A stretch of 64,000 bases of DNA from Mobula hypostoma. Lineage: Eukaryota. The DNA lies in assembly GCF_963921235.1 (NCBI RefSeq), contig NC_086108.1, positions 92,940,001 to 93,004,000 on the forward strand, read 5' to 3'. The position numbers and the translations under genes were made by a program. A model generated the notes under the pieces. That model saw nothing but the letters and a program-made list of their open reading frames with translations. It had not been told where the DNA came from and did not search any database. Positions 1 to 47,885 of this stretch are shown here, in pieces (positions within the stretch are counted from its first letter, which is position 1; each line of letters starts with the position of its first letter).

Positions 1-925
1 CTCTGACTATCCACACAATCAATGCCTCTCGTCATCGTATACACCTCTATCAGGTCACCTCTCATCCTCCATCGCTCCAAGGAAAAAAGGCCGAGTTCAC
101 TCAACCTAATCTCACAAGGCATGCTCCCCAATCCAGGCAACATCCTTGTAAATCTCCTCTGCACCCTTTCTATGGCTTCCATATCCTTCCTATAGGGAGG
201 CGACCAGAACGGAGCACAGTACTCCAAGTGGAGTCTGACCAGGGTCCTATACAGTTGCAACATTACCTCTCGGCTCCTAAACTCAATCCTATGATTGATG
301 AAGGCCAATGCACCATATGTTTTCTTAACCACAGAGTCAACCTGCGCAGCAGCTTCGAGTGTCCTATGGACTCAGACCACAAGATCCCTCTGATCCTCCA
401 CACTGCCAAGAGTCTCACTATTAATACTATATTCCGTCATCATATTTGACCTACCAAAATGAACCACCTCACACTTAACTGGGTTGAACTCCATCTGCCA
501 CTTCTCAGCCCAGTTTTGCATCCTATCAATGTCCCGCTGTAACTTCTGACAGCCCTCCACACTATCCGCAACATCCCAAACTTTGTGTCATCAACAAATT
601 TACTAACACATCCATCCACTTCCTCATCCAGGTCAGTTATAAAAATCATGAAGAGTAGGGGTCCCAGAACAGATCCCTGAGGCACACCACTGGTCACCGA
701 CCTCCATGCAGAAGATGACCTGTCTACAAACACTCTTTGCCTTCTGTGGGCAAGCCAATTCTGGATCCACGAAGCAATGTCCCCTTGGATCCCATGCCTC
801 CTTACTTTCTCAATAAGCCTTGCATGTGGTACCTAATCAAATGACTTGCTGAAATCCATATACACTACATCTACTGCTCTTCCTTCATCAATATGTTTAG
901 TCACATCCTCAAAAAATTCAATCAT
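1..925 (-). mobile_element. CR1-clade LINE, RT fragment (runs off window start)
   Basis: ORFs 440..733 ([24 protein letters not shown]) and 372..560 ([20 protein letters not shown]). Closely similar to the copy at about 20630-21530. Confidence 0.92.
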
Positions 926-2088
926 TTTACTTGGATTTTCAGAAGGCATTTGACAAGGTGCCACACACGAGGTTGCTTAACAAGATAAAATTCAATGGCG
1001 TTACAGGAAGGATACTGGCATGGATAGAGGAACGGCTGACAGGCAGGAGGTACTGAGTGGGAATAAAAGGGGCCTTTTCTGGCTGGCTGCCAGTGACTAG
1101 TGGTGTTCCTCAGGGGTCAGTATTGGGACCGCTACTTTTCACATTGTTTGTCAATGACCTGTATAATGGTGGCTTTGTGGCAAAGTTTGTGGATGATACG
1201 AAGATAGATGGAGGGGTAGGTAGTGCTGAGGAAGCAATGTGATTGCAGCAGGACTTAGACAAATTGGAAAAATGGGCAAAAAAAAGTGGCAGATGGAATA
1301 CAGTGCTGGGAAATGTATGATAATGCATTTTGCTAAAAGGAACAATAGTGCGGACAACTAATTAAATAGAGAGAAGGCTGAAACATCAGAGGTGCAGGGG
1401 GACTTAGGAGTCTCGTGCAAGACTCCCAGAAGGTTAATTTATAGGTTGAGTCCGTGGTAAAGTAGGCAAATGCAATGTTGGCATTTATTTCAAAGGGAAT
1501 ATAAAAGCAAGGTGATAGTGTTTATAAGACACTAGTCAGCTGCACCTGGAGTATTGTCAACCGTTTTAGGCCCCATATCTCAGAAAGGAAGAGCTGTCAT
1601 TGGAGAGAATCCAGAGGAGGTTCATGAGGATGATTCCGGGATTGAAGGGATTGACATATGAGGAGCATTTGGCAGCTTTGGGCCTGTACTCCCTGGCAGT
1701 TAGAAGAATGTGAGGGGATCTCACTGAAACCTACCAAATATTGATAGGACTAGATAGGGTGGATGTGGAGAAGATGCTTCCTATGGTGGGTGTATCAGAA
1801 CTAGTGGGGACAGCCTCAAAATTGAGGGGTGACCCTTTAGAACAGAGGTGAGGAGGAACTTTTTTATCCAGAGAGTAGTGAATCTCTGTCACAGACAGTG
1901 GTGGAGACCAAGGCCGTGGGTGTATTTATGGTGGAAGATGATCATTTCCTGATCGGTCAGGGAATCAAAGGATATGGCAAGAAGGCAGATGTATGGGGTT
2001 GATTGGGTATTGGATCAACCATGATGGAATGGCAGAGCAGACTTGATGGGCTGGATAGCCTAATTCTGCTCCTATGTCTTATGGTCTA
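926..2088 (+). mobile_element. CR1-clade LINE, RT to 3' tail, degraded
   Basis: [26 protein letters not shown] and AKFVDDTK motifs. 3' end is gggctggatagcctaattctgctcctatgtcttatggtct. Confidence 0.9.
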
Positions 2089-2089
2089 A

Positions 2090-2997
2090 ATCAGCTGGAA
2101 TTCTTTGTAGAAATAACAGGCAGGATAGACAAATCAAAGTCAATGGATGTTGTTTATTTGGATTTTCAGAAGGTCTTTAACAAGGTTCTGCACAGGAGGC
2201 TGCTTAGCAAGATAGAATCCATGGTAGTGCAGTAAAGATACCAGCATGGATAGAAGATTAGCTGACTGACAAGAGGCAAAGAGTGTGAATAAAAGGACTT
2301 GGTAGTCCTTGTGCAGAGTTGTTTAAGGATTAACTTGCAGATTGAATCAATGGTAAGAAAGGCAAATGAAATGTTAGCATACATTTCAAGAGGACTAGAA
2401 TACAAAAGCAGAAATGTAATGTTGAGGCTTTATAAGGTATTGGTCAGACCGCGCTTGGAATATTGTGAAGAGTTTTGGGCCCCTTACAAAAGAAGTGTTG
2501 GCGATGGTGAGGGTCCAGAGGAGGTTCTTGGGAATGATCCCAGGAATGAAAGGGTTAACCAATGAGGAGTGTTTGAAGGCTCTGAGCCTTTACTCGCTGG
2601 AGTTTAGAAGAATGAGGAGGGAACTCATTGAAACCTATCAAATACTGGAAGGCTTAAATAGAGTCAGTATGGAGATGATGTTTCCTATAGTGGGAGAGTC
2701 TTGCACCAGAAGGCACTCCCTTAGAATTGGGGGACATCCAGTTAGAACAGAGATGAAGAAAAAATTCTACAGTCATGGGGTGGTGAATCTGTGGAATTCA
2801 TTGCCACAGGCAGCTGTGCAAGCCAGGTCATTTTGTATATTTAGGACAGAGGTTGATAGGTTTGTGATTAGTAACGGTGTCAAAGCTTCCGGGGAGAAGG
2901 CAGGAGAATTAGCCTGACAGGGATAATACATCATCCATTACTGAATGGTGGAGCGGACTCGATGAGCCAAATGGCCTAACTCTGCTCCTATGTCTTA
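2090..2997 (+). mobile_element. CR1-clade LINE 3' fragment with internal deletion
   Basis: ORFs 2299..2565 (LYKVLVRPRLEYC) and 2465..2917 (LEFRRMRRELIETY..VVNLWNSLP), followed by a CR1 3' UTR tail. Confidence 0.9.
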
Positions 2998-3022
2998 AAA
3001 ACATCAACCACACAGAACTTAC

Positions 3023-3044
3023 ACTTTTAATCACGTCAAGAATG
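3023..3044 (-). CDS. Tentative 22-nt microexon of the minus-strand gene ((G)ILDVIKS)
   Basis: Minus strand reads ttttgaaaattctgtgtag|CATTCTTGACGTGATTAAAAGT|gtaagtt. Open in phase 2, matching the end phase of 3650-3683. Confidence 0.3.
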
Positions 3045-3649
3045 CTACACAGAATTTTCAAAATGACCACACCCACAACTGATTAACCTGGTATGTTTGT
3101 GAGTTGTACAGTTAGTGGGGTGACTGTGGTGACACGGGAAACACTGGTAAATTATAATTAGCTGTGAACATAACCCACGATGTCATGCAAACCCACCTTC
3201 CTTCCATTGACTCCATCTGCCTCTGGAAAGCAGCCAACATAATCAAGGGCCCCTTCTACCCCGGTCACTCTCACTTTTCACCCTCCCCTTTCCATCCAGG
3301 AAAAGTTAGGAAAGTCTGAAAGTATGTACCACCAGATTCAAGGATGGTTTGTATCCCACTGTTAACAGATCATTGAATGGGCCTCTCATATGCCAAGGAT
3401 AAATTCCTGATCTTCCAGTTGACCTCAGCACAGCCTTATGCTCTTTGTTTAGTTGTGTTCTACTTTCCCCATAGCTGTTGTGCTATATTCTGCATTCTGA
3501 TTTCTGTTACTACCTCGATGTACTTATGCGTGGAATGACTGTACTTTGTACCCATGACAGCAATAATAATAAACCAAACTATCTTTGAACACTCTGATCT
3601 TTACAGATCTCAATTCAGTTGCAGTTGACAGTAACCACACTCATTTTAC

Positions 3650-3683
3650 CCATAAATGGAAAAAGATTTTCTCAAACACTTAA
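3650..3683 (-). CDS. Tentative 34-nt exon of the minus-strand gene (xKCLRKSFSIYG)
   Basis: Minus strand reads poly-T attacag|TTAAGTGTTTGAGAAAATCTTTTTCCATTTATGG|gtaaaa. Open only in phase 1, so it needs an intervening phase-0-to-1 exon after 11146. Confidence 0.35.
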
Positions 3684-4627
3684 CTGTAATAAAAAAAAAA
3701 GAAACTGTTTTCCAAAAAGTGGAATAAAAAAAACGAAGAGTTCTAGCCATTCTAATGAGTGAAATTTTGCATTTTATTTTGTTGGGCATACAGAGTATTT
3801 GGGTTTATTCCAAGTTTTGAAAGATTTTTCAAACATACCCACATGAATTAGAAGATCACAAATCTACCCCAATTCCTGACACACTCACTTCTATCACACA
3901 CCTGACCCACGCTCCGGATCTCTGCTCTGACCGCACACACAACTGACCCACGTTTACCAAATCCCACCAACACTGGTTATAGACCCAGCCCATTTTCCTG
4001 ACCCTCAGTTCCAGCCACATACTTGACCAAATATCCTTCAGATTCACGGGCAGAAAAATTGAACCAACGTCAGTGTCCTCTCTTGTTTCAACAACCCCAG
4101 AAGCAGTGCCCTAATTATTCTTTGTCCACTACGTCTGACTACTCCCTTGTTCCCAGACTCAATACAGACACTGCAGTCTGAACATTGTTATGAAAGGAGA
4201 TTACCAAACAGACAGAGAAAAGATGTGGTCAGAACCCCCTTGGAGAAGAGTAAATTCAGATTTATTTATAATATGTACATTGAAACATACAGTGAAATGT
4301 GTCATTTGTGCTACAACCAACACACTCAATGATGTGCTGAGGGCTGCCCACAGGTGTCACCATACACCAACATAGAATGCCCACAAGTTCAATAGAACAA
4401 CATAAACAGCAACAACAACAAAATAAGACAACAGCATAACCGACCCCTTTTCCCACAAACTCACTCCTTCACATACAGACAGATCTCCAACCCCAGGACA
4501 GTCCACCTCTGGGCCTCCAGTCCTTGGCTCTGGACTCTGAGACTTGCAAACATCAGGCCTCCAACTTCAGACTTCGCACTGGGTTTGATGATCACAGGTT
4601 TGTCCTTTGGCATTAGACCCCCGATCT

Positions 4628-6300
4628 TGCCGATAACAAAGATTTTGCTTCCTGAATACTTATTGGGTGCACCTTATGGATTTTGGGCTTCTGATCATGA
4701 AAATCACCATGAATTTTCCATATCACACATCATTTGTTTGAAATTGCCATGTTATTTCAATTTATAATTCAAGTCAATTAAAATGTAAGTTGAAAAGTTT
4801 TTCTCTTGTCCAGACACAACTAGGCAGGGCAGATGCTCATGGCAGGCCAGGTTTCAGAAAGGCTATAAAAAGCATCTCACACACACACTGTACTGTGCAT
4901 TGCGTTTACATGTATATCATTTGCGATCACGTTGATACGCATGCTCTATGCGCATAGCATATTGTGTACTCATTATAATAATGTGATTTTATTTCCGGAG
5001 TATTTATGATAGCAAAGTATCTCACCGATGTTTCAACAGCCATGATACTTTGTTATATTTGTGGGAAGTATACATTTAAACGTCAAAGACAGAGCATGCC
5101 TCCTCTTACTGAGAAAGCCTGTAAAAGGGTGTAAAATTGGTGACCAAGACAAAGCCTGGGCTCCTCACGTTTGTTGCGCAACATGCGCTGTTGATCTTAG
5201 AGTTTAGCTCAGAGATACTCAGAAGTCAATGATGTTCGCTGTCCCAATGATAAGGAGAGAGCAGAAGGATCATGTAACAGACTGTTACTTCTGTCTGACC
5301 AGTGTGTCTGGTTTCTCTGCTAAAAACAAGAAGTCCATTGAATACCCCAATCTCCCTTCGGCTATGAGGCCTGTGCCTTATGATGATAGTCTTCAGTACT
5401 GAAGCCACCAGAGACACAGAATCAAGAGGAGGCAGACAAAGATGCCATGATGCATGAGCCAAAAATGGAAAACAACACTGATACTGATACAGATTTTGAA
5501 CCCTTTATGTCAAGTGAACCTCACTGGATAATTCAATCTGAGCTAAATGACCTAGTCAAAGACTTGGTTTTGTCAAAGGCGAAGTAGAATTACTGGGTTC
5601 AAGACTGCAAGGATGGAATTTTCTGTCACGAGGCACAAAAGTTTCCGTGAAGGATTCAATATTTGTGACAGCTGTTTCCCAGGGTAACTGATGCCAATAA
5701 GGAAAGTATTTTTCTTGGTCCACAAGTCAAACCGGTCATCAATGACAGTCAGCTCAAAGAACTTCGAGTTGAACCACAGAAAAATCACATGGAAGGCACT
5801 GAAGAATGTTGTTGAAACTACAGAGCACCAAACTACGTGGATCTGATTAACAACAGGCTTCAAAGTACAAAACCATGAAGTGCGACATGTCACTAAAGAT
5901 TCATTTTCTGCATTCCCATTTAGACTTACCCTGCACAGTCAGTGACGATCACAGTGAAAGGTTTCACCAGGACATTGTGATCATGAAGAAATGGTATCAG
6001 GGCAATTGGAATCCATCAATGCTGGCTGATTATTGTTGGACACTTAAGTGAGGAGTCTCAGACACTTAATAGAAATGAAAATGATCAAAACATTTTTAGC
6101 TAAGTTGAACTATTGCAAAGCATCAGTACCATTAATGCAACTAAAGGCATTATATTCAACGCAAGCTAATTTTTTGTTCTTCTAATTCCTACATGATACA
6201 AGTAGTCTGAAATTATATTTGTGTTCAGCTTCAAGTGGTCTATCATAACCACAAAATATTTCTGAGCTAGCAACACTTCCAAAATATTTGCTGTCCATTG
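4628..6300 (+). mobile_element. Degraded DNA transposon, probably Chapaev3-type (CMC superfamily)
   Basis: Broken transposase motifs QSELNDLVKDLVLSK..ELLGSRLQGWNF (about 5533-5622) and MSLKIHFLHSHLD..VSDDHSERFHQDI..YQGNWNPSMLADYCWTLK (about 5887-6048). Right end ..tttgctgtccattg resembles a decayed ..GTG terminus. Superfamily assigned from recalled motifs. Confidence 0.7.
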
Positions 6301-6689
6301 TAATGGGTTTGGGCTTTGGGCCCTGACTCTGGACTCACATGGACCTCTGAGACCCTGGTGTCCCAGGCCACAATGACTCCTTTGGATCTCTACTATTGGC
6401 ATTTGACCCTCGGGCTTCTACCTCTATACCTCTGGCCCATGATCGCTCAGAAAGGAGAAGGGAGATTCAGTATGTTATTAAGGAGCTCAGGCTCATGCAC
6501 TGGGGCCATCCAGAAGCCCTGTGTAAGTGGTGGAAGGAGAAGATGAACTCTCAATGTATCCACTCACCCACCCATCAGCCATCTCCTTCCACATCTATGG
6601 AAGAGATTGGTTCTGACATTGGTCTCAACAATCACCACAAATCAGCGCGGAGAAAGGCCTCTGAAGCCTCTAACAATCCTGTGCATTGG

Positions 6690-6990
6690 CTCCAGCAAAT
6701 CACTTGGTGATGGAACCAGTCAGAATGCTGTCCACAGTACATCTGTAGAATTTGCAAGAATCTTTGGAGACATACCAAATCTCCTCAAACTGCTAATGAA
6801 GTGTAGCCACTGGCATGTGTTTGTCTTGATTGCATCAATATGTTGGGCCCAGGATAGATCCTCTGGAATATTGATGGCCAGGAATTTGAAACTGCTCACT
6901 CTTTCCACGACTAACCCCTCAGTGAGGATTGGTGTATGTTCTCCTGACTTCCTTTTCCTGATCAATTTGTTGGTCTTGCTGAAGTTGCGT
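6690..6990 (-). mobile_element. Rex1/Babar-type LINE RT C-terminal fragment
   Basis: ORF 6720..6965, VERVSSFKFLAINIPEDLSWAQHIDAI..LRRFGMSPKILAN. Confidence 0.8.
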
Positions 6991-7065
6991 GCAAGCTAGT
7001 TTCCATCTTGAGGGACTGCTTAAGATGGTAAAGTGTTCAGATTTCCAGTATTGTCTGTATTGTGT

Positions 7066-7290
7066 GAAGCATGTGGCCAAGTGGTTAAGGCGTTCGTCTA
7101 GTTACCGCAAGGTCGCTAGTTCGAGCCTCAGCTGTGGCAGCGTGTTTGTGCCCTTGAGCAAGGCACTTAATCACACATTGCTCTAGTCTGTGCGAGGAGT
7201 GGCGCCCCACACAGACTTCCAATCTGCGCCTTGTAAGGCATGAAAATGCCCGACGCAGGCCTCTCATGGTCTGAGTCGGCATTCCCCTCC
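7066..7290 (+). mobile_element. Full-length tRNA-derived SINE with CORE-like central domain
   Basis: A box tggccaagtgg, B box gttcgagcc, core-like gtgcccttgagcaaggcacttaa. Exact 11-bp TSD ctgtattgtgt at 7055-7065 and 7291-7301. Confidence 0.88.
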
Positions 7291-9289
7291 CTGTATTGTG
7301 TCATTAGTCCAACTTTCAAAAATATGATTGGTAACACATTGCCACAGTTGATGACATTGGAAAAGCTTTACAGTGCAAGACAAATTAACCAAGGCGGCTC
7401 CAGTTAACAGCAAAATGCCCAAGCCAACTTGGTATTTATCCCAGGCTGCTACGGGAAGTAAGGGAAGAGATTGCTGGGGCTCTGACTGAGATTTTTAGTT
7501 CTTCATTGGACATGAGTGAGGTACCAAGTGAGGTTCTTCATTGGACATGAGTGAGATTTACGGTGACTTGGGAAAAGTCTGGTAATCACAGGCCTGCTCA
7601 CCTAACGTCAGTAGTAGGGAATATATTGGAAAATATTCTGAGATACGACAGAAGGAGTGAATGGAGAACAAAAATGGGGAATAGAAAAAGAGAGAAGGAG
7701 ACGGAAGGGGGAAGAAATTACTAAAGTTAGAGAAATTGATGTTCAATGGCCTTCATTGGTCAATGCAATGAACACAAGAAAAGGCAGGTTATGCTCCAAT
7801 TTGTGAAACATCGTTCAGATATCATCAGGAGTACCATTTGCAGCTCTAGTCTCTGCACTAGAGGGAAGATGTGATCAATATACTTTGTTACCTCTTCAAA
7901 ATAAAAGTTCAGTCAGATTGATCAGACAGGATAAGAAGCAAGGGCATTTTTTCCCTAGGAATGGAGGGCAAGCAGGGATAAAATGATGAGGGGTACAGAT
8001 AAGGGACACTTCAGGAAACTATCCAACATATCATAGGTGGATAAAACTGGAAGCAGCAAGAGATTTAGAGAGGATTCACCGGCAGTGATAGTCGGCCGGT
8101 GGTGGACTTTGAGACGAATGGTCCTGAGATCGAATCCAATCAGCTCTGTGCATGCTTTCCATCTGTGCTGGGTTGAGCAGTGGTCGAGCTAGCAACTCGG
8201 CCTTATTTAAAAAAAACATTCAAAGGCATGAAAAGGAACAACACCACCAATATGATGAGGACCTGGATTAACTTGCCAGAGAGAATGAAGGAAATAAAGT
8301 CCAAGGCCTGTCTGCTCTAGATGATCGTTTGAATTGCTTATATACAGAAACCTACAGGCTAAGTGCTGGAAGTATGGATGAGTCCGCACTGGGCATCATG
8401 GACGTGCTGGTCAAATGGTCTGTTCCATGCAGTGTGACACCATGGCACAAGGCCAAAACCAATCTACAATTATCCCGTCCCTATACATAGAACTAAACAA
8501 TAAATCCAGAAGCCAGAGGTATTTCAAGTTTGGGACTTATTTTGTAAACCCTTTAAGAAAACATAACCTTCACATAATGCGATTTCAGAAGTTTCAGGCA
8601 CCCCTCAGTGTATAAGCAGATCACACAACAAAGCCATGGTGTTCCGCAAACTCTCTGATTCACCTTGTGAAGAAGATTGCATCTCCAGACAGCCCACGTC
8701 ATTAGTGATTAGATTGACTTTCTATAATATCCTGAGATTTCAACATGATGTTCTTCTGGGTTTATTTATGAGGCTCAGTTTCAGCAATCATCATGGTTTC
8801 ATGTTGCTTTATGAGCAAATTAATCAGCACATGGAATAATTATGAAAGGCCAAGAACCTAAACAATTTAAAGCTCCATATTGTTGACAGGAAACATCCTG
8901 TTGAATCTCCTCTGCAGCCCTTCCGACATTCTCACATTTCTCCAGCAGTGTGGTAAACAGATTCATATATGTTACTCAGAACCATCCCCATTCCATACCA
9001 CATCTTGTTGATTACATGCAGGAAATTGTGACCTTGAATTTACTGGAATCATCTTGTGTGTACCATTAGAGGCTTTGGATCATTGCATAAGCTAAACAAT
9101 GATTATTTAATTGCAGATTATCTGTAACGCACAAAGCATTCATGTTTTATCATTTGGGATGGATCCATCTGGACTAGTGCCTGAATCATACACCAAGCAT
9201 TCCATTTTATGGTTTTAACTCACTAGTCAATAGCTGCCAGTAACATTAGTTTAATAATTTTGGGATAAATGCAAGTCTGTGCTAAAGAG

Positions 9290-10740
9290 CAACACACACA
9301 AACTGCTGGAGGAACTCAGCAGGTCAGGTAGCATCTCTAGAAAGGAATAAACAGTCGATATTTCGGGCTGAGACCCTTCATCAGGACTGGAAAGGGGGAA
9401 GATGCCAGAATAAGAAGGAGGGGGGAGGGGGGAGAAGGAATACAAGCTAGAAGGTGATAGATAAAGCCAGATGTGTGGCAGAGGAGGAAATGAAGTAAGG
9501 AACTGGGAGGTACTAGGTGGGAAAGATAAAGTGCTGGAGAAGACGGAATCTAATGGGACAGGAGATTGGACCGCGGAAGAAAGGGAAGGTGGAGGGGCAC
9601 CAGGGGGAGCTGACAGGCAGATGAGGAGTGGGGCAAGAGTGGGGAAATAAAGAAGAGGAAGGGATGGGGGAGGAGTAGGAAAAAATAACCGAAAGTCGAA
9701 AAAATTGATGTTCATGCCATCGGGTTGGAGGCTACCTAGACTCCCTTCTGTCTCAGTCCTGAAGAAGGGTCTCAGCGCGGAACATCTTCTGTCTACTCCT
9801 TTCCATAGATGCTGCCTCAACTGCTGAGTTCCTCCGGCATTTGGTGTTACACCCTCCAAGCTGAGAGTGGTCTCATTGTGGTAGAAGAGGAGGCCATGAA
9901 CCCACATGTTGGAATGGGAATGCCACTTGCAGAAATAAGTGCCAGAAGGGAGATTATTGGGGAGGGACAGATGGACAAGGGAATCACGGAGGGAGTAATC
10001 CCCACAGAAAGCAGATAATGGAGGAAGGAGATAAGGATGCGTTTGGTGGTAGGGTCCTGTTGAAGATGGCAGAAGTTTCGGAGAATGATGTGTTAGTAAG
10101 AGGAGAGGACAAGAGGAGATCTATCCCTGTTAAGGCAGCGGGAAGATGGGGAGAAACCGGACATCTGGGGAATGGAGGAGATGCAAATGAGGGCAGCATC
10201 AATGATGTAGGAAGCAAAAGTCTGTTCTTTGAAGGAGGAGGACGAAAGAGTCTCTTGTGCCAAGATGAGTCCACCCTTTGAGTAGAAGAGCAACACCTTA
10301 TATTCTGTCTGGGTAGCCTCCAACCTGGTGGCAAGAGTATCAATTTCTCCTCTTGTAAACAAATTTCCCCTCATCCTTCTTCCTCTGTTCCCCACACTGA
10401 CTTTTTTCCCCTTCTCACCTGCCTATTAGTTCCCCGTGTCCCCTCCTCCTTCCCTTTCTCCCATAGTCCACTCTCCTCTCCTATCAGATCCCCTCTTCTT
10501 CAGCCCTTGACCTTTCCCACACACCTGGCTTCACCTTTCACCTTCCAGCTCGCCTCCTTCCCCTCCCCCCACCTTTTTATTCCAGCATCTTCTCCCTTCT
10601 GTCTCAGTCCTGAAGAATGGTCTCGGCCCGGAACGTCTCCTGTCTATTCCTTTCCATAGATACTGCCTCAACTGCTGAGTTCCTCCAGCATTTAGTGTGT
10701 GTCGCTTTGGATTTCCAGCATCTGCAGACTTCCTCATGTT
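9290..10740. mobile_element. Penelope-like element fragments in both orientations, with pseudo-LTR termini
   Basis: C-terminal motif EEQHLIFCLGSLQP (+, about 10285-10330) and LGSLQPDGMNINF (-, about 9700-9740). tgctggaggaactcagcagg terminal modules carry hammerhead-like motifs. Confidence 0.8.
9352..9389 (-). ncRNA. Minimal type I hammerhead ribozyme motif (Penelope-associated), intact core
   Basis: Minus strand CAGUC-CUGAUGA-A-GGGU CUCA GCCC-GAAA-UAUC-GACUG: stem I CAGUC/GACUG, stem II, palindromic AUAU in place of stem III, AUC cleavage triplet. Confidence 0.75.
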
Positions 10741-11145
10741 TATAAAGAGGCTTTGTTTGTGTTTGGGATGGAATAATAATGAAGAACGATTGTTTTTTCA
10801 AAATTCTTGTTTATGTTTGTGTTTGTTGACACAAGAGCCTGAAGATGCTGGAATCTGAAGAAGCAAGCAATCTGCTGGAGGAACTCAGTGGGTTGAGCAG
10901 CACTTCTGGGAAGGAAAGGAATTGGATCAACACCCTGCATCAGGAGTGGGAGGTGTCATACTAAATCGCTGAACCATCCTGCAGCAGACAATTCCTTTCC
11001 TCCCACAGACGAGACACTGCTTAACTGACCGAGTTCCTCCAGAAGATTTTTTGAAACTCCTGCCTATCTTTGTTCAAGAGCTTATGTTCAATTTGATTCT
11101 CTGTATTAACAACGCTAAAACTGGAGACTTCAGGAATGTGCCTAC

Positions 11146-11194
11146 CTGTGGTGAGCCGCCCCGCTCAAATGAAATGTGGGCATTGTGGCAAAGC
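11146..11194 (-). CDS. Putative coding exon 3 of unidentified minus-strand gene ((Q)LCHNAHISFERGGSPQ)
   Basis: Long pyrimidine tract tttttttttcatttttctgatccctgggcag and donor CAG|gtaggc. 49 nt, open in phase 2, as required by exon 2. Confidence 0.6.
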
Positions 11195-11295
11195 CTGCCC
11201 AGGGATCAGAAAAATGAAAAAAAAATTCTTTTTTCCCCATCTGTAGTGGTACAACAGTAAGTCAGTAAAGATGAAGTGAAAGAATGCATTACCTC

Positions 11296-11524
11296 ATTAC
11301 CTCAAAATGCATTTTTTTTTCTTTTTTCATGATTTTTCTCTAGTTATTTTCTTTTCGTCCTGTATTATTCATTGGTATCCTACATGATTGGGAGTTTTGT
11401 CAATTTATACTATTTGGTTTTATAATTACTCATCTTAAGTATAACAATGTATTCCAAACAATTTTGTATTATTGCTATGTTATGTTTATATTTTATGAAA
11501 CTAATAAAAAGATTGAAAAAGAAA
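11296..11524 (+). mobile_element. 5'-truncated L1-type 3' UTR insertion
   Basis: T-rich body ending in aataaaaagattgaaaaagaaa. 18-bp TSD gaaagaatgcattacctc at 11278-11295 and 11525-11542. Confidence 0.8.
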
Positions 11525-12727
11525 GAAAGAATGCATTACCTCTAAGATCAGGTATTCTCTGCCACACATTGCCCTCACTTCATTGTATCCCACAACGGGC
11601 ACTCCTCCTCATTCTTCACTTCCACATCATTTTGACTTTGAAGTTGCTAACAGCATGTCCTGACTCTTTGGCACCTGATACCTTAGTGAGTGATGTACCA
11701 GCAGTGTCAACTTCCCAAACAATGATAGGCAAGTCAAAGCTGATGATGGCCAATGCTACCAAAGTGCAGAGTCAAACTATCTGCTGGATCACATCAGTCC
11801 TGATGCAAGGTTTTGACAAAAAACATTGATAAAACATCCTTTCCCCCATAGATGGTGCTCGACCTGCTGAGTTCCTCCAGCAGATTGTGTGTTGCTCCAG
11901 ATCCCAGCACCTGCAGTCCCTTGTGTCACCACAAAAGTGAAAACAGGATCCTACAAACATACAGGTAAGGCACGGGGAAGGAGCAAGGCATTCTGGTCCT
12001 AGGGTCTGATCTGTTGTTCAATGAGATCATGGTTGATCTTCAGTCCTGACATCACTTCCTGCCAAATCCCTGTATCTCCCAGATCCTTTGATATGTGGAA
12101 TATCAGAGAGAAGGTACAGACCCTGAAGACTGAAGACCCACACAGAAGGTTTCAGGAACTGCTTCTGTCCAATTGCCATTGGATTTCTGAATAGTCCATG
12201 AACTCATTGACACTACCTCACTATTCGTCTTTGGCACTACTTATTTCTTCTTCACTGTAACTTGTAGTAATGTTTATGTCTTGCACAGTACTGCTGCCAC
12301 AAAACAACAAATTTCATATCTCAATGGTAATATACAGTTGTTCTGATTCTATCGACCTTGGGTCTGAACAACTCAATGATGGTGCCTCCACACCCCTCAG
12401 GGCAGAGGTTCATCACTTCTGAGTGAGCACACCTCTCTTCATCTCAGTTCCAAATTGTCTACTCCCTGTCTGAGTCTGCAAACCCTCAGTTAAGGGAAGC
12501 TTTCTCTTGGTGTCTACACTGTTAAGCCATCTGAGAACTTTGATTGTTTCAGAGATCAGCTCTTATCCAAACACTTAAGAAAGCAGTTTAAACTATTGTA
12601 TCTCCTTGTGTGGTAGACATACCATCCCAATAACCAGCCTGGTGAATCACTGCTGTACTCCTATACCAGGTAGAGTACATCTATTTCTTACGATAAGAAA
12701 ACCAAACAAAATTTTAAAGAAAGGATC

Positions 12728-14490
12728 GAGTGCTTTCCCAGCATATATGATGAATAAACTCTTCTTGGACTTCCAGCCTGGTATAAGTATCAATTAAAAC
12801 TGATGTTTCAATGATAGTTCTCCATCTTCCTCAGGGATGATGCCTGAACATATCTAGTCTGGAGGTATTCATACCCCATAATCTGTCTCCCATTCCCCCC
12901 CCCCCCGGATTGGTTAGTCCTCATCCAATCAGATTTCCACTGTCCCACTTTGTAATCGAATTCCAGTTCTTACTTAGAGCAAGCCTTTGTCTTTATTAAA
13001 ATTGTTTTCCTCTGGTTTTATTTCAATTGCTTCCTTCATCAGGCAGCCCCAAAAGCAATTGACGTGGCACAGTAGTTTTGTGTCATTGAAGTCAATCCTA
13101 TGGCCATTGCGAATACAATATTCTGCTACCATCGATTTCTCTGGGTAACCCAAACGGATACACCTCCTGTGCTCCTTGATGCGGGTTTCCACCGTGCGTC
13201 CCGTCTGGCTAACATACTCTACTCCGCATTCACAGGGAATCCTGTAAACACCAGCCCAGCTGAGTCCCAGCTCATCTTTGACCCACATAAGCTGCGACTT
13301 GAGCTTCCTTACGGTTTGTGAATGTTATTAATCTGGAACTTCTTCAGGATCCTGGTGATCCTTCCAGAAACCATGGGAATATAGGGAAGACAGGTGGGTT
13401 CCTCCTCGTTGTTAGGTTTCCTGGTTTTTCAGTCAGCCCCTTTAAGAGCCCAATTGATTTCATTCACCTTGTAGCCATTCTGTAGGAATATCATGCATAA
13501 GTGTTTTATTTCTTTAGGGAGGCTCTCTGGGTCCAAAATAGTTTTCATACTGTTAAAGTAGAAAGAACCGCTCTACATTGGGAGGCATGATGGCAACTGT
13601 TATTGTTTGTTGAGGTACGAGTCCATGTGAGTGGGTTTCCAAAAAAATGCCGTGTCCGAGGCTATTGTCCGGTTTCCGTTTTATTACAATGTGGAGGCAA
13701 CCATTCTTCTCCATCTCAATCGTCAATTCAATGTTTGGATGTATGCTGCTCCGATGGTGGAGTGCCTGGAGTCCACGAGCCCACACTGTGAAGGTGTCAT
13801 CAATGTATCTGAAAAAGTATTTGGGGCGCAAGGGGAATGAACTCAGAGCCCTCTCCTCAAAGTCCTCCATGTAGAAATTAGCAATCAACGGTGACAAGGT
13901 GACACGGTCACTCTGTCCCTTTGTTCATTGTAGTTCCCTTTATAGAGGAAGTACGTCAATGTAAGGGTGTGTTCAAACCTTATCAACCCTTGACTGTAGG
14001 AGGACTAAGCTGTCGGTAATGGGAACTCTCGTGAACAGGGACACCACATTGAAACTGACCATTATGTCCTCCAGGTTCAGCTGAATATTTGTTACCGTTT
14101 TAATAAAGTCCGTTGAATTTGTGATTTGTTGCTCAAAGCCCCCAACAAAGGGAGACAGGATGGACATTAAATGCTTAGTGAGGTAGTCAGTCGGAGAACC
14201 TATTCCACTGATGATAGGCCTCCGGGGGAACCCTCCTTGTGCATCTTAGGGAGCCCGTAAAGCCTTGATGGTACAGGTGCCAGAGGCAGAAGCGTCTTGC
14301 ATATGTCTGCTGGCAATCCGGATTTCTTCCGTAAAGCAGAAGTCATCCTTACAATTGAATCCATGGGATCCCGCTGTAGAACTCTGAAGGCGGGATCACC
14401 TAGAATCTGTTGGCCTTTCCTGTGGTATTCCTTCGAGGACATCAGGACCACTGCATTTCTTTTGTCCACTGGTAAAATCATGAAGGCCGG
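12728..14490 (-). mobile_element. Penelope-like retroelement (RT + GIY-YIG endonuclease), frameshifted
   Basis: ILPVDKRNAVV, RLYGLPKMHK, VSFNVVSLFTRVP, SPLIANFYMEDFE, FFRYIDDTF and AGVYRIPCECGVEYVSQTGRTVETRIKEH. Decayed hammerhead CUGAGGA..GAAACAUC at about 12800-12836. Confidence 0.93.
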
Positions 14491-15227
14491 GCTTCGCCAT
14501 AGAGGGCGTAGACCCAGCGAGTTTCCCCGAGGAAGTAAGATGATTATGCATGATGTTTAGCACAAGCACGTCACAAAGTAGGTTATTCACAGTGACGATT
14601 AGATCTCCTGCAGTCATGGACATATGTTCAGAGGGATGCAAGCAGAGATCTGTTGGAACAATAGGCGAAGACTTGGAGCATCAGAACACACTCAAGAATT
14701 CCAAGACAGAGGTGGAGTTGGATATGGGATATAAGTCTGCAAAGACAAGGGCCTTGGAAAAAAAAACTGTTGTGAGACAGGATGGTGAGAACAAGTGGTG
14801 GACAGGTGAGGGTAGCTAGTGGGCCTCATACCCCACTGAGATAGAGGCATGCCTGTTCTAGCAGGCAAAGTCAGCAAAGCCGGACTGGGAGGATGAGACC
14901 CGGTTCTGCAATCCTCCAGAGGGCATGGCGAGGCACAGAAGATGTCATGATCATCCAGTGCATCCAAGGAATGGCGAGGACGAATGCTTGGCAAAAGACA
15001 AAAGGAAAGTTAACCACTCCAAATGTTAAAAAGCCTGAGGAGGTAGAAAAGGAAACTAGGTGGCAAACTGCTTTGCGGGGACAGGATCAAGTGCGTCAGA
15101 AGTGGGTCACATGGAAAGCCTACGAAACTAAAAGAAGATTCTAAAGGAAAAAGGTGACAAAGGAGACTAAGAACAGGAAAGGTGTCCAAGCAAATGCACA
15201 CATCAAGACAAAACATTCACAACCTAC

Positions 15228-15274
15228 TGGCAGTGATGGGGGCGGATGGGGCAGCCCATGTAGGAGCAGTAGTG
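15228..15274 (-). CDS. Putative coding exon 2 of unidentified minus-strand gene (HYCSYMGCPIRPHHC)
   Basis: Minus strand reads ttcgggtttgttttcag|CACTAC...CACTGCCA|gtaggt. 47 nt, starting in phase 0 and ending in phase 2, linking exon 1 to exon 3 in frame. Confidence 0.6.
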
Positions 15275-15528
15275 CTGAAAACAAACCCGAATTTCCTATA
15301 AGTGCCTGCCGGACACTATGGTGAATTCCCCAGTCCTTCTGCAGACTTGTGCATTCCGATCTTTAGCATCAATCTTGCAGAGTTTCAATTGAACATCTTA
15401 TTTGAACAACCATAACTCCAGTAGTGCAGAAATCTCTGCACCATACCCGAGTACTCCAGATCTCTGTACTCAGGTCTCCAACTCCCCAGACTTGTCTCCT
15501 AGAGTACAACCCACCAAAACTCCCACTA

Positions 15529-16029
15529 CGAGGGGTGATTGATAAGTTCATGGCCCAAGGTAGAAGGAGTCAATTTTGGAAAACCTAGCACATTTATTTT
15601 TCAACATAGTCCCCTCCTACATTTACACACTTAATCCAGCGGTCGTGGAGCATACGGATCCCTTCTTTGTAGAAGTCGGCGTCTTGGACCTCCAGAAAGT
15701 GGTCCACAGCAGGGGTGATTGATAAGTTCGTGGCCTAAGGTAGAAGGAGATGAGCTATTAACTTCAAACTTTCTGCATAATCACTCAAAGAGTTGAACTG
15801 TAGATGCATGCAATCAGAGCTGTATAACTCATCTCCTTTTTCCTTAGGCCACAAACTTATCAATCACCCCAGCTGTGGGCCACTTCTACAAAGAAGGGAT
15901 CCGTATGCTCCACGACCGCTGGACTAAGTGTGTAAATGTAGGAGGGGCCGATGTTGAAAAATAAATGTGCTAGGTTTTCTAAAATTGGCTCCTTCTAACT
16001 TAGGCCATGAACTTATCAATCACCCCTCG
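15529..16029. mobile_element. Palindromic mariner-derived MITE
   Basis: TA flanks at 15527-28 and 16030-31. TIR cgaggggtgattgataagttc, with roughly 150-bp inverted arms. The right arm encodes the mariner transposase C-terminus FYKEGIRMLHDRWTKCVNVGGADVEK*. Confidence 0.92.
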
Positions 16030-16676
16030 TATTTCAGAATCAGACCTTATTCATGATGAAAAAAATACAAACAAATATTGCAAAAGCCCTTTATATTCTT
16101 TGTCAGCATATTGTATAATGTAAACTTTAGAGAGAGGGGAAAGAACAGAAGAAATTCAGCACCTCCCTGTTGACCATTACCAATTTTATTGATGCACAGT
16201 GGAAAGCATCCTATCCAGATGCATCATGGCTTGGTACGGCAACTGTTCTACATATGATCCCAAGAAATTGCAGTTGCAGAATTGTGGCCACAACTGAGCA
16301 TGTCATGGCAACCAGCCTCTCCTCCAAGCACTTTGTCTATCTATACTTCTCTTTTTTTTTTGTAATTTATTTTTTATTGAATTTCATCATCAAACAACTA
16401 CTTCTCATTGCCTCAGTGAAGCAGCCAGCATAATCAAAGACCCCACACCCACCCTAGGCATTCTCTCTTCTCCCCACTCCTGAAGGGCAGAAGATGCAAA
16501 AAGCCTAGCAGTACCAGGTTCGAGGACAGATGAGAAAGCCTGCAGATGCTGGAAATCCAAAGCAACCCATACAAAATGCCAGAGGACCTCAGCAGCTTGG
16601 GTAGCATCCATGGAAAGGAGTACAGAGTTGATGTTTCTCACCTAGATCCTTCTCCAGGACTGAGGCAGAAGGGTCT

Positions 16677-16714
16677 TGGTCCTGATGAAGGAGCTCGGCC
16701 CGAAACGTCGACTG
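16677..16714 (+). ncRNA. Minimal hammerhead motif in an inverted pair of Penelope terminal repeats (about 16525-16770)
   Basis: tggtc-ctgatga-aggagctcggccc-gaaa-cgtc-gactg. Core intact, with one stem II mismatch. Confidence 0.65.
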
Positions 16715-17219
16715 TTTACTCTTTTTCATAGATACTGCCTGAGCTACTGGGGTTCTATGTGTGTTGCTTTAGGTTTAAGGACTGCTTCTACAGATTGTTT
16801 TAGAGTATTAAATGGCCCCTTGGTCCATTACGATGGACTGGATCTCACCATCTCTCCCCTTGATCTCACAATCTCTCATTATGATCTTGCATATTGTTTA
16901 TCCTGCACTTCCTCTGTTGTTTCTACACTTTTCTCTACTTTAGTCCTATCCGTGTAATGATTTGATCTGTATAAACAGTATGCAAGACAAGCTTTACACT
17001 GTATCGCAATCAATAATAATAATGCACTATTGCTATCCCATGACCCCAATGAGGCGATACCTTTTTCATTGTTCGACCCACCAAGACTATCGACGTTTTG
17101 GGCAGTGGAGACCCCCTCATGCTCCACCCGGCACCTTTTACGTGGCAAGCCTAGACCAGGGCAAATGAGCCATTAAAATCCAAGTGCAATATAAGGAATT
17201 ACATGTGATAGATTCCTGT

Positions 17220-18025
17220 AACAGGCGCTGCTAATAGCTGAGAGCCGATGGTTCGAGTTCTTGTTTGCTTTGGTAAGTAAAACATCCTTAAAAAGCCAGC
17301 GGTTTCAGCCCCCGCCAGGCTTTCAGAGTTTCCGTTCCAAGCCGAACCTATTGCTGAGCGAAAGAGCTATATATCTTTGGCCCCTTAGTTACGGATCTCT
17401 CTAAGTGAGCACAGCTTGAATTAAATAAACATTATACGAATAAACAAACATTTTCTGCAGAAGTAGAAAAGACAAATGACGGAACGCCCACAGTGGTTGT
17501 GATTAACTCGCCGTGGGCCAGCGCCCCTCATTAAAGCACACACTTGACCGTATAATCGGCTTTTCACCCACTCGCCTCTCCTCCAGGGCGGCCCCGAGCT
17601 CATTAAAACAAAGACCAAGAGAAATCCTGACCCCCCCGAACCTGCTGCAGTTCAATAGTGTATCCTGGGATCCGAAATCAGTTCCAGCGGCGGGGACTCG
17701 CCCTTCGCAATTAAATTGAGTTTAAGAACATGATTTAGCTATCACTTCGCTCCCGGTTTGTGCCGGCTTAAGACACTGAGATAATAAGCAAACTCTGGAA
17801 CAAAGAAGCGGGGCTCGATGAGGAGGGTCCCTGCCAACAATTCGGGTCATACTCACCTCGTACTGGCCACAGCAGGACATCCCGAGGCCCAGGAAGGTTT
17901 GAGCAGCAGCTGTCAATCCCAATTAGCGACAGAGCGAGTGAAGTTTCTCCTAAACTTGCTGTTGCTGTTTCCGCCGCCACTGCCCCTGCTCACCTGCACG
18001 GCAGGGGGCGATGGTGAGCTCAACG
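17220..18025 (-). promoter_or_regulatory. CpG-enriched promoter / first-exon region
   Basis: Unique sequence with conspicuously retained CpGs against a CpG-depleted background. GC-box-like motifs, a CTCF-like cacggcagggggcga at about 17997-18011, and a strong GAG|gtgagt donor. Confidence 0.65.
17857..17880 (-). CDS. Putative first coding exon of unidentified gene (MSCCGQYE)
   Basis: Minus strand reads ctcgggATGTCCTGCTGTGGCCAGTACGAG|gtgagtat. Purine at -3, consensus donor, inside the CpG-rich region. Confidence 0.62.
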
Positions 18026-18271
18026 AGCTTCTACCCACCTTCACCACCTGGAGTACAAAGTACCACATGGAACACCCCATCTACAATCCATTGCTACTCC
18101 TTTCACACACCAGCAGGCAAACCAACCAATTCCTGTCGGTTTGCAGACACAGTTCTTTTGATTACATTGTTGATTCCTTGTATAAGGAATGAATAATAAA
18201 CTAATCGCAATGAAGTTTAGATTCATTGACAGAAGGTTTTGGAATTGGGATTGGTATATTATTATCGTCAC

Positions 18272-44950: not shown

Positions 44951-47240
44951 GTGTGCTCACGACTATGCTACTGGGTCATTCCGGTTCTGACTCTCTTAGA
45001 CCACCTGACCTCAATAGACGTCAGTTTCAGCACAAATGAGTTATCCTTTCATGCCATTTAGCTTATTTGTGAAATTCAAATGAAATGATGAGTCAATGGC
45101 TTGCTAGAATTAGAACTGGGATCTCATTTGCATTTCTCGTAAACAAAAAATAAATTAGCATTGACTGTATGTGGGAGCAAGAGGTTTTTCATCATCAGCA
45201 TCCAAAGTGCTGGCATCTGAGATTAACGTCATAGCAACAAAAAACAACTGAGTATTCCCTAGCTGCAATTTATATATGTACTATCTTTCAAAGGATGAAC
45301 ATTCTCTCATGGGAAACAGTTTCCCATGGCTGTAGAGCTACGCAATTCCTGCCACCGCCCAGGTCTCATTACGATTGGTGTGCCAGTAGTGTCATACTTT
45401 TTACCTTTTAATTTATTAGATTAGATTATTTGTTCATTTATTTGCGGTAATATTACTTTGTGTTGTGTGTGAGCTTTATGTACAGTGTTTGCACCTTGGT
45501 CCAGAGGAACGTCGCTTTGTTTGGTGGTGTGCATGTGTAATTTTGAATGACGATAAACAGAACTTGAACTTGATATGGATTAGTCTCCAAAGAATGAACG
45601 CACTCCCATGAAACATGGCACACATTGAAAATGTATTATGCATTTGTGCAGCACTTTGTACTTATGTGAGATTTTACTACTGTGGTCAATCAAAGTAAAG
45701 AGGATTGAATTGGAGACACAAGAGACTGCTGATGATGGAATTGGGAGCAACAAACAATCTGCTGGAAGAACTCAAGGGGTCAAGCAGAATCTACAAGTGA
45801 AAATTTTGGGTCATGGAGTCACAGAAGAGTACAGCACATAAACAGGCCCTTCAGCCCATCTAGTCCATCCCAAAAGCATTTAAACTGCCTACTCCCATCG
45901 ACTGCACCAGGAGCTTAGCCCTCCATATGCCTACCATTCATGAACCTATCCAAACTTCACTTAAATGTTGAAATTGAGCTCATTAGTGGGATTAGACGCT
46001 GAGAAAGCTTTTGATTCCGTTAGTTGGCTACTCCTATACAGAGTGTTAGGAAGATACGGCTTTCAAGAAAAGTTTTTTAAGGTAATCCAGACTTTATATG
46101 ACAGCCCTACAGCTCGAATTAAGATAAATGGGGACCTCTCTGACTCTTTTATTTTAGAGAGAGGAACTAGACAGGGATGCCCAATTTCTCCTCTCCGTTT
46201 TGCACTATACATTGAACCTCATGCCCAACTAATAAGACAGAGCAAAATTGTAAAAGGTATCAAGGTGACAGGGATTCAACAGAAGGTGATGCTATTCACA
46301 GATGATGTTCTAGTCTATTTGAGTGAACCAGAAAAATTATTTATAGCATTGTTTACACTGTTGGATGAGTTTGGGAAAATATCAGGTTATAAAATTAATG
46401 TAAAGAAAACACAGATTTTGTCCTTAAATTATACAGCATCCAGAAAACTGCAGGTTACATATGATCTTAAGTGGGAAGCTAAATCATTAAAATATTTAGG
46501 AATAACCCTGCCAAAAGATCTTTCAACATTGTCACATGTAAATTATGGGCCATTAATTTCAGAGATAAAAGCAGATATATGTAGGTGGAATCTTATCCTC
46601 TTTTTAAGTTTAAATTCAAGGATAAGTACCATAAAAATGAATATTCGCCCTCAGTTACTTTACCTTTTCCGGACTTTACCTGTGGAGGTGGACGATAATA
46701 AATTCAGGGAATGGGACAAATGGATTTTCTGCTTTATCGGGCAAGAAACCTAGAACCTGATTTAACACCTTACAGTTAGGAAAGGAAGGAGGAGGTATGG
46801 CACTTCCTTGTTTGAGAAATTATTTTTATGCTTCACAGATAACCCCTTTGTTATATTGGTGCAATAGGGAATATAAAGCTAGATGGAAGGAAATAGAATT
46901 TGGATTGATTGACAGTTTTCCTCTACAGGTCTCAAAAGCAGACAAAGAATTGATGGCCCAATTGGAAAAGATTAAAAATAGCTGGGTAAATCTCACATTA
47001 AAAGTAATCAATAACATGTTAAAACTATTCAGATGGCATGTTCATGATACTGAATTTCTTCCCAGCAGCAGAGATAAAAGATTTGAACTGTGGATAAAGA
47101 AAGATCTTACAATCTACCTCTCATTCACACATAAAAGTGTATTACAAAGTTTTCAATCCCTGCAGGGCAAACATGTCCGAGAACACAATAACTTTTTTAG
47201 GACCTTCAAGTACGGCATCATGTTAACCAGAGTTGCAGAT

Positions 47241-47885
47241 ATTAGATTAGATTAGGTTATGAGGACATGCAGTCCTCGTTTATTGTCATTTAGTAATGCA
47301 TGCATTAAGAAATGATATGATGTTTTTCCAGAATGATATCACTGAAAGACGTGGCAAACCAAGACTGAAAAACTAACAAAAACCACATAATTATAAAATA
47401 TACTTACAACAGTGCAAAACAGTACCATAATTTGATAAGAACAGACCATAGGCATGGTACAGTCTCAAAGTCTCTCGAAAGTTCTATCATCTCACGCAGA
47501 CGGTAAACCTCCAGCGCCGCAAACTTGCCGATGCAGCATCCCGGAAGCATCCGACCACAGTCCGACTCCGAGTCCATCCGAAAACTCTGAGCCTCCAACC
47601 AGCTCCCAGACACCGATGCACCGAGCACCATCTCTGCTGAATGCTTCGACCCCGGCAACAGGCAACAGGCAAGGCCAAGGAATTGGGGCCTTCCCTCTGG
47701 AGATTCTCAATTGCACAGTAGCAGGGGCAGCGAAGCAGGCATTTCAGAAGTTTCTCCAGATGTTCCTCCGTGCTTCTTCACATCTGTCTCTATCAAATCA
47801 GGATTGTGCACGGCAACCTACTTCACAGATACGATATCAATTCGAAATGGCTGCGCGCTCTGTGTTGCACTGCCATCTTCTCCTC
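47241..47885 (-). mobile_element. Second copy of the 43940-44622 retroposon, nested in L1 ORF2
   Basis: Reverse-complement homology along its length, with an (attag)n tail at 47241. Confidence 0.78.

What the first reader, a model, noticed from the sequence alone, without database searches (positions are those of the whole stretch)
11146..17880. Hidden minus-strand gene built from tiny exons, encoding a Cys/His-rich N-terminus
Seen in sequence: three short unique islands among TEs (17857-17880, 15228-15274, 11146-11194) carry canonical splice sites with phases 0/0 and 2/2. They join into the stop-free peptide MSCCGQYE-HYCSYMGCPIRPHHC-QLCHNAHISFERGGSPQ, which is invisible to the ORF track. It has 6 Cys and 5 His in the first 30 residues. 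Inference: this could be a metal-binding module (RPHHCxxC loosely recalls DHHC and FYVE zinc motifs) or an S-acylated N-terminus (MSCC). I do not recognise the protein. It may be a novel gene or a lineage-specific alternative N-terminus of a known gene lying beyond the left edge.
Basis: partly seen in the sequence, partly recalled or inferred. Interest (0 to 1): 0.7.

Follow-up and report, generated by a model that had tools for sequence, protein, structure and literature searches.

The report
First exon of ray CTL3 gene
The supposed hidden gene is the start of an already annotated membrane-protein gene (slc44a3, choline transporter-like protein 3) in a devil ray; its first tiny exon is real, while the two other Cys/His-rich pieces are likely chance exon look-alikes inside its first intron.

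Summary
The three segments exist as described, with canonical splice dinucleotides and a stop-free join, but they are not a new gene. Segment A (17857-17880) is the first coding exon of slc44a3 (CTL3), a 16-coding-exon minus-strand gene running about 147 kb past the left edge. It matches the RefSeq-named Mobula protein P0087. In 58 of 136 fetched homologues this exon joins directly to the next canonical exon, and 0 of 136 carry any 5-mer of segments B or C. Contigs of 3 of 4 likely-RNA runs (one study) join A to exons 24 or 51 kb downstream, across B and C. In-frame pseudo-exon pairs with equal splice scores occur in 47 of 53 control tiles. Segment C has a second copy in an inverted duplication and is no better conserved than its flanks. 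Against this reading, no control tile reached the pair's Cys+His level, B is single-copy with a strong 3-base rhythm, and the B-C junction was not tested directly. A rare ray-specific cassette is not excluded (about 7%). Ordinary finding.

The parts
17857..17880 (-). First coding exon (8 codons, MSCCGQYE) of slc44a3 / CTL3, phase-0 donor GAG|gtgagt
   Evidence: Identical to the start of P0087 and P0001; contigs of X2, X3, X4 leave the genome here for downstream exons
17881..17975 (-). 5' untranslated part of exon 1 (minimum extent; contigs cannot give the true start)
   Evidence: Contigs of X2, X3, X4 reach 17965, 17975 and 17971
17001..18000 (.). CpG island, likely the promoter of slc44a3
   Evidence: CpG o/e 0.77-0.78; promoter role inferred
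1..17856 (-). Intron 1 of slc44a3 (24,445 nt; continues to the canonical exon 2 at G000:C50:92933411-92933307, beyond the left edge)
   Evidence: junction letters in X3 and X4 match exon 2
15228..15274 (-). Segment B: intronic, AG/GT-flanked, likely a pseudo-exon; single-copy, C-rich (23 of 47 nt), 13 of 15 third positions C
   Evidence: Acceptor 5.9 and donor 5.0, the donor below all 14 real slc44a3 donors scored, 5.5-12.1; absent from 136 homologues; 1 genome match; periodicity matched by 3 of 467 candidates, B included
11146..11194 (-). Segment C: intronic, AG/GT-flanked, likely a pseudo-exon; lies in an inverted segmental duplication
   Evidence: Scores 8.4 and 8.7, within the range of real exons; second copy at G000:C50:93109616-93109876 on +; 5 of 49 mismatches against 13 of 313 in the flanks; absent from 136 homologues

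Best explanation
Segment A is the first coding exon of the ray slc44a3 (CTL3) gene and is spliced to an exon 24 kb downstream, beyond the window, while segments B and C are likely unused exon look-alikes within that intron. Shown: gene identity, 16 coding exons, a 657-aa product, the A-to-exon-2 and A-to-exon-3 joins in RNA contigs, and conserved neighbours. Inferred: transcription from the CpG island; a ten-helix membrane protein with a short cytoplasmic N-terminus like CTL1; S-acylation of Cys3/Cys4 without N-myristoylation, because there is no Gly2. The substrate was not tested. The family is named for choline transport, but a 2026 preprint found lipid binding and no choline transport for CTL1. 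The Cys/His richness comes mostly from B being a C-rich stretch read in one chosen frame.
For: An exon found left of the window hits 86 proteins, nearly all named CTL3, the best at 96% identity. P0087 (657 aa) is encoded exactly: 652 residues over 15 exons with AG/GT ends and the last 5 by a 16th exon. Pfam Choline_transpo E 7e-104; human CTL1 structures E 4e-236 over residues 1-634. 58 of 136 homologues join exon 1 directly to exon 2, 4 join it to exon 3, 74 have other starts, and 0 of 136 hold a 5-mer of B or C. These include all 5 members of the Mobula cluster and all 8 of the stingray cluster. X3 (2690-nt contig) and X4 join A to exon 2; X2 joins A to exon 3. Chance pairs are common, 47 of 53 tiles. 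C is no better conserved than its flanks between the two copies. Calponin repeats lie about 19 kb past the stop on the opposite strand and a tissue-factor match about 315 kb upstream, as in the human F3-SLC44A3-CNN3 order (recalled).
Against: The B+C pair is the most Cys+His-rich of all pairs examined: 0 of 53 control tiles reach 25%. B has a 3-base rhythm confined to its AG/GT ends (uncorrected p 4.5e-4; 3 of 467 candidates, B included) and sits in single-copy DNA. C has splice scores like real exons, and both copies keep AG/GT. B+C is 96 nt and would keep the frame into exon 2. The RNA evidence is four runs of one study, library type guessed, tissue unknown, held as contigs that drop rare forms. 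Protein databases would not show rare or non-coding isoforms.
Confidence: 0.88

Rival explanations
1. B and C are a real but rare or tissue-restricted cassette of slc44a3 that would insert 32 Cys/His-rich residues into the cytoplasmic N-terminus of CTL3 in this ray lineage.
For: Phases 0-2-0 keep the frame into exon 2. Highest Cys+His share of all pairs tested and a codon-like rhythm in B. C has good splice scores.
Against: 0 of 136 homologues carry it, including all 5 Mobula isoform proteins. Three runs' contigs join across both segments. B's donor is weaker than all 14 real donors scored. B's 13 of 15 C-ending codons differ from the gene's 201 of 652. C differs from its copy at 3 of 16 residues, with 4 of 5 changes non-synonymous, though these could have arisen in the copy.
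Confidence: 0.07
2. B or C is used singly now and then as a cryptic exon; neither length is a multiple of three, so inclusion would shift the frame and likely send the RNA to nonsense-mediated decay. This would be splicing noise or weak regulation, with no Cys/His protein made.
For: Lengths of 47 and 49 nt; C has a strong donor. Such forms would be invisible in protein databases. Compatible with the best explanation.
Against: No direct evidence of use; the alternative B donor at 15224 scores -0.5.
Confidence: 0.04
3. A, B and C are the start of a separate, novel small metal-binding protein gene.
For: Only the stop-free join and its composition.
Against: A is the start of slc44a3 by identity, homology and RNA joins. 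The B frame has no Pfam match.
Confidence: 0.01

Closest known systems
slc44a3 / choline transporter-like protein 3 of Mobula (RefSeq XP_062920685.1 = P0087; XP_072129587.1 = P0001)
   Same: P0087 is encoded letter for letter by exon A plus 15 downstream exons; same 8-residue start.
   Different: None of the annotated isoform proteins (P0087, P0088, P0089, P0001, P0090) contains segment B or C.
Human CTL1 / SLC44A1 (PDB 7wwb, 9qu3)
   Same: Aligns over residues 1-634, E 4e-236; MSCC aligns to MGCC and ray Cys27 to CTL1 Cys26. CTL1 is reported as myristoylated, palmitoylated and geranylgeranylated at C26 and C512 (bioRxiv 10.64898/2026.10.02.755950, section 6).
   Different: A paralogue, not the orthologue; the ray protein has Ser, not Gly, at position 2. 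The section read does not give the palmitoylated sites.
DHHC and FYVE zinc motifs
   Same: Only Cys and His close together in the B frame.
   Different: No Pfam family at E up to 1 for the 23-aa open B frame; no evidence that B is translated.

Membership tests
SLC44 / CTL family | Choline_transpo domain PF04515 | tested here: met
   348 bits against a cut-off of 26.9, residues 290-601 of P0087
SLC44 / CTL family | Full-length homology to structurally solved CTL1 | tested here: met
   Residues 1-634, E 4e-236
SLC44A3 (CTL3) orthologues | Closest relatives named CTL3 across jawed vertebrates | tested here: met
   86 hits, nearly all named CTL3 or choline transporter-like, 68-96% identity; no tree against CTL1, 2, 4 and 5 was built
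SLC44A3 (CTL3) orthologues | Short first coding exon of the M-x-C-C-G-x-Y-x type joined in phase 0 to the REWRP exon | tested here: met
   58 of 136 homologues; RNA contigs of X3 and X4
SLC44A3 (CTL3) orthologues | Position between F3 and CNN3 (human order, recalled) | tested here: met
   Calponin repeats at C50:92769898-92773736 (+) and Tissue_fac at C50:93272905-93273117 (+); identified to family level only
SLC44 / CTL family | Transport of choline or binding of phospholipid | not testable with these tools
   Needs an assay; disputed for CTL1 (abstract of bioRxiv 10.64898/2026.10.02.755950)
Real cassette exons (B and C) | Junction reads into and out of the exon | tested here: inconclusive
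   Contigs of 3 of 4 runs join across both; the A-to-B join was not seen; the B-to-C join was not resolved because the tables were cut
Real cassette exons (B and C) | Presence in annotated isoforms or relatives | tested here: not met
   0 of 136 proteins share a 5-mer
Real cassette exons (B and C) | Conservation of frame and splice sites in other ray and shark genomes | not testable with these tools
   No related genome is held
DHHC or FYVE zinc modules | Profile match and ligand spacing | tested here: not met
   0 Pfam families for the 23-aa B frame; only B was scanned, not the joined peptide
N-terminally S-acylated membrane proteins | Thioester-linked fatty acid on Cys3/Cys4 | not testable with these tools
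   43 of 136 homologues begin M-x(1-2)-C-C; the paralogue SLC44A1 is listed in a palmitoyl-proteome table (PMC8583988)

The most novel reading that the evidence does not exclude
Devil rays have exonised two intronic segments into an in-frame 96-nt cassette that, in a tissue not sampled here, gives CTL3 a new 32-residue Cys/His-rich, zinc-binding or multiply acylated cytoplasmic N-terminus: a module born de novo inside a conserved membrane-protein gene.
Probability: 0.07. Interest if true: 0.4.

Novelty: already known. Interest (0 to 1): 0.08.

Why it matters
Little as it stands: the gene is already annotated, and the unusual peptide is most likely a product of picking two splice-site-flanked stretches out of a 24-kb intron. 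It is a useful calibration for the scan, since phase-compatible, stop-free tiny-exon chains occur in 47 of 53 control tiles. If the cassette were real it would be a modest case of de novo exon birth. A side lead may be worth more: an in-frame skip of exon 2, seen in a ray RNA contig and in 4 of 136 proteins (devil ray, sawfish, sturgeon, squirrel), removes most of the first membrane helix and would be predicted to change the protein's topology.

Tried and rejected
1. Laying four runs on 1-18200 at 90% likeness was swamped by repeats: 15 of 1251 joints were shown, so it says nothing about the B-C junction. 2. In one search no contig joined A to B in 4 of 4 runs; contigs drop rare forms, so this blank is not counted as evidence. 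X1 gave only an unspliced contig (17443-17883), which may be pre-mRNA or DNA. No holder is on record as RNA. 3. Is B part of a repeat? The neighbouring DNA is: a reverse-transcriptase element at about 13180-14500, 62 matches (RVT_1 E 0.005, below cut-off; 'Penelope-like' is recalled), and a short repeat at 14803-14971. The stretch 14975-15525 gave 1 match only. Not shown to be a repeat. 4. Is B's rhythm the antisense shadow of an old plus-strand gene? The 47-aa plus-strand frame over B found only itself in the genome and 0 of 1.84 billion proteins. Not supported. 5. The joined 40-aa peptide was not searched against protein databases; the test used was a 5-mer look-up in the 136 fetched CTL3-type proteins, so an unrelated protein resembling B or C is not excluded. 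6. The first exon walk failed at exon 5 because the range was too narrow and was redone. There the script overshot the donor of exon 15 by 2 nt, so that donor was left out of the 14 scored; the end was corrected. 7. The first tile control included real slc44a3 exons and the claimed pair; I report the rerun with these masked or left out, 53 tiles. Exons of other genes such as the calponin gene were not masked. 8. Paper searches: SLC44A3 + palmitoylation gave 0 papers; SLC44A3 + choline transporter + CTL3 gave 6, listing only; SLC44A3 + splicing terms, listing only, none read. 9. No earlier scan notes nearby.
Full report
Observation. A (17857-17880) begins with ATG and ends at GAG|gtgagt; B (15228-15274) and C (11146-11194) are flanked by AG and GT; the join is 120 nt and stop-free. 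A sits in a CpG island, 17001-18000. The window is G000:C50:92940001-93004000. Coordinates outside the window are given as C50 positions or as window-relative numbers (C50 = 92,940,000 + x).

Finding the gene. I took 400 kb to the left and 200 kb to the right and listed low-copy, splice-flanked open segments with a home-made splice matrix built from recalled approximate vertebrate frequencies. One 47-aa exon left of the window, searched by reference, returned 86 proteins, nearly all named choline transporter-like protein 3, led by Mobula at 96%. The cluster look-up gave the isoform proteins. P0087 (657 aa) is encoded exactly by A plus 14 further exons for 652 residues, and its last five residues and stop lie in a 16th exon at C50:92792854-92792837. 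It carries PF04515 (E 7e-104) and aligns to human CTL1 over residues 1-634 (E 4e-236). Calponin repeats lie about 19 kb beyond the stop on the opposite strand, and a tissue-factor match lies about 315 kb upstream. This fits the human F3-SLC44A3-CNN3 order, which I recall and did not look up. The gene is slc44a3.

Exon A is its ordinary first coding exon. Of 136 proteins fetched, 58 start with this exon type and run directly into the canonical exon 2, with 7-11 residues to its first Trp. Four join it to exon 3. The other 74 have different starts: truncated models, alternative first exons or the bird type. The 8-residue start is identical in several rays and sharks and recognisable in chimaera, amphibians, turtles and marsupials. 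None of the 136 shares even a 5-mer with B or C; this covers all 5 members of the Mobula cluster and all 8 of the stingray cluster.

RNA. Five runs hold part of the exon-1 region, all with RNA status guessed. On 17380-18200, four runs of one study gave five contigs. X3 (2690 nt) and X4 leave the genome at the A donor, and their loose letters are those of canonical exon 2, 24 kb on. X2's are those of exon 3, 51 kb on (checked against the genome). These contigs join across B and C. X1 gave unspliced intron contigs only. The limits are one study, unknown tissue, and contigs that drop rare forms. The B-C junction was never resolved, because the wider laying was swamped by repeats.

Are B and C more than chance? 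B scores 5.9 (acceptor) and 5.0 (donor); C scores 8.4 and 8.7. The real exons score 5.9-13.6 and 5.5-12.1 (14 each). At the claimed exons' own thresholds, intron 1 holds 25 low-copy candidates and 5 in-frame stop-free pairs. Without the copy filter it holds 17 pairs on the sense strand and 14 on the antisense strand. In 53 control tiles of the same length, with slc44a3 exons masked and the claimed tile left out, 47 hold such a pair (median 5) and 17 hold one as biased for some pair of residues as B+C is for Cys+His. C lies in an inverted duplication. The two copies differ at 5 of 49 exon positions against 13 of 313 flank positions (Fisher p 0.08), changing 3 of 16 residues: no sign of constraint, though the changes may belong to the copy.

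Results against my reading. No control tile reached 25% Cys+His, whereas B+C has 28%. B has C at 13 of 15 third positions, a rhythm matched by only 3 of 467 candidates including itself, about what 467 trials would give after allowing for 12 base-by-frame tests. It lies in DNA that gave a single genome match. I looked for an older source of that rhythm on the plus strand and found none. B's codon endings are unlike this gene's (201 of 652 C-ending). B+C would keep the frame into exon 2. These points leave about 7% for a rare real cassette.

How it most likely works. Shown: exon A splices to exon 2, or sometimes exon 3, to give CTL3. Inferred: the CpG island is the promoter; the product folds like CTL1, which has ten helices and cytoplasmic ends (bioRxiv 10.64898/2026.10.02.755950, section 6); the MSCC start is S-acylated but not myristoylated. 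MSCC aligns to CTL1's MGCC, and 43 of 136 homologues begin M-x(1-2)-C-C. CTL1 is reported palmitoylated and myristoylated in that preprint (abstract, passages and section 6 read; sites are not given there, and its supplements are closed and may hold them). SLC44A1 is also listed in a bovine palmitoyl-proteome table (PMC8583988, table passages only). A search for SLC44A3 with palmitoylation found no paper. The preprint's abstract reports no choline transport for CTL1 and proposes phospholipid binding, so the function of ray CTL3 is assigned only at family level. The papers not named here were seen as search listings only.

Verdict. Already known gene. Interest 0.08. The exon-2-skipping form, seen in one RNA contig and four species' protein models, is the more useful lead.

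Noticed in passing
window 17857 joined to G000:C50:92906418 (exon 3): In-frame skip of exon 2 (105 nt): contig of run X2 and 4 of 136 proteins (P0088 devil ray, P0009 sawfish, P0022 sturgeon, P0083 squirrel). It removes most of the first membrane helix (peak hydropathy in the first 90 residues 2.62 to 1.30) and the Cys matching CTL1 Cys26. Predicted to alter topology; may be only a tolerated splicing by-product.
   Followed up: partly
G000:C50 about 93152424-93152456 (window coordinate 212424-212456): RefSeq-named isoform P0089 (three accessions) begins with an 11-codon exon about 195 kb upstream, with no second copy in the 664 kb examined. It also ends in C-C-x-Y-E with a phase-0 GT donor. 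No DNA similarity to exon A was found; upstream non-coding exons were not traced.
   Followed up: partly
window 1-12708 against G000:C50:93108468-93121045: Inverted segmental duplication of about 12 kb of intron 1, 71-95% identical in blocks, about 150 kb upstream of exon 1.
   Followed up: partly
window 3194-3325 (-): Matches the first 44 residues of the Hypanus isoform P0091 at 86% with a stop, in both copies of the duplication: that annotated alternative start is likely intron- or repeat-derived and not conserved.
   Followed up: no
window about 13180-14500 (-): Decayed reverse-transcriptase element with 62 matches genome-wide at mostly 72-86% identity, a lower bound; a 321-nt part has a 98% copy at C50:93999477-93999797.
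   Followed up: partly
G000:C50:92769898-92773736 (+) and 93272905-93273117 (+): Calponin-repeat and tissue-factor family matches flank slc44a3, likely cnn3 and f3.
   Followed up: partly
window 45965-47255 (+) and 57114-57944 (-): ORF fragments that look like L1-type ORF2 and ORF1 pieces (labels recalled, not tested).
   Followed up: no
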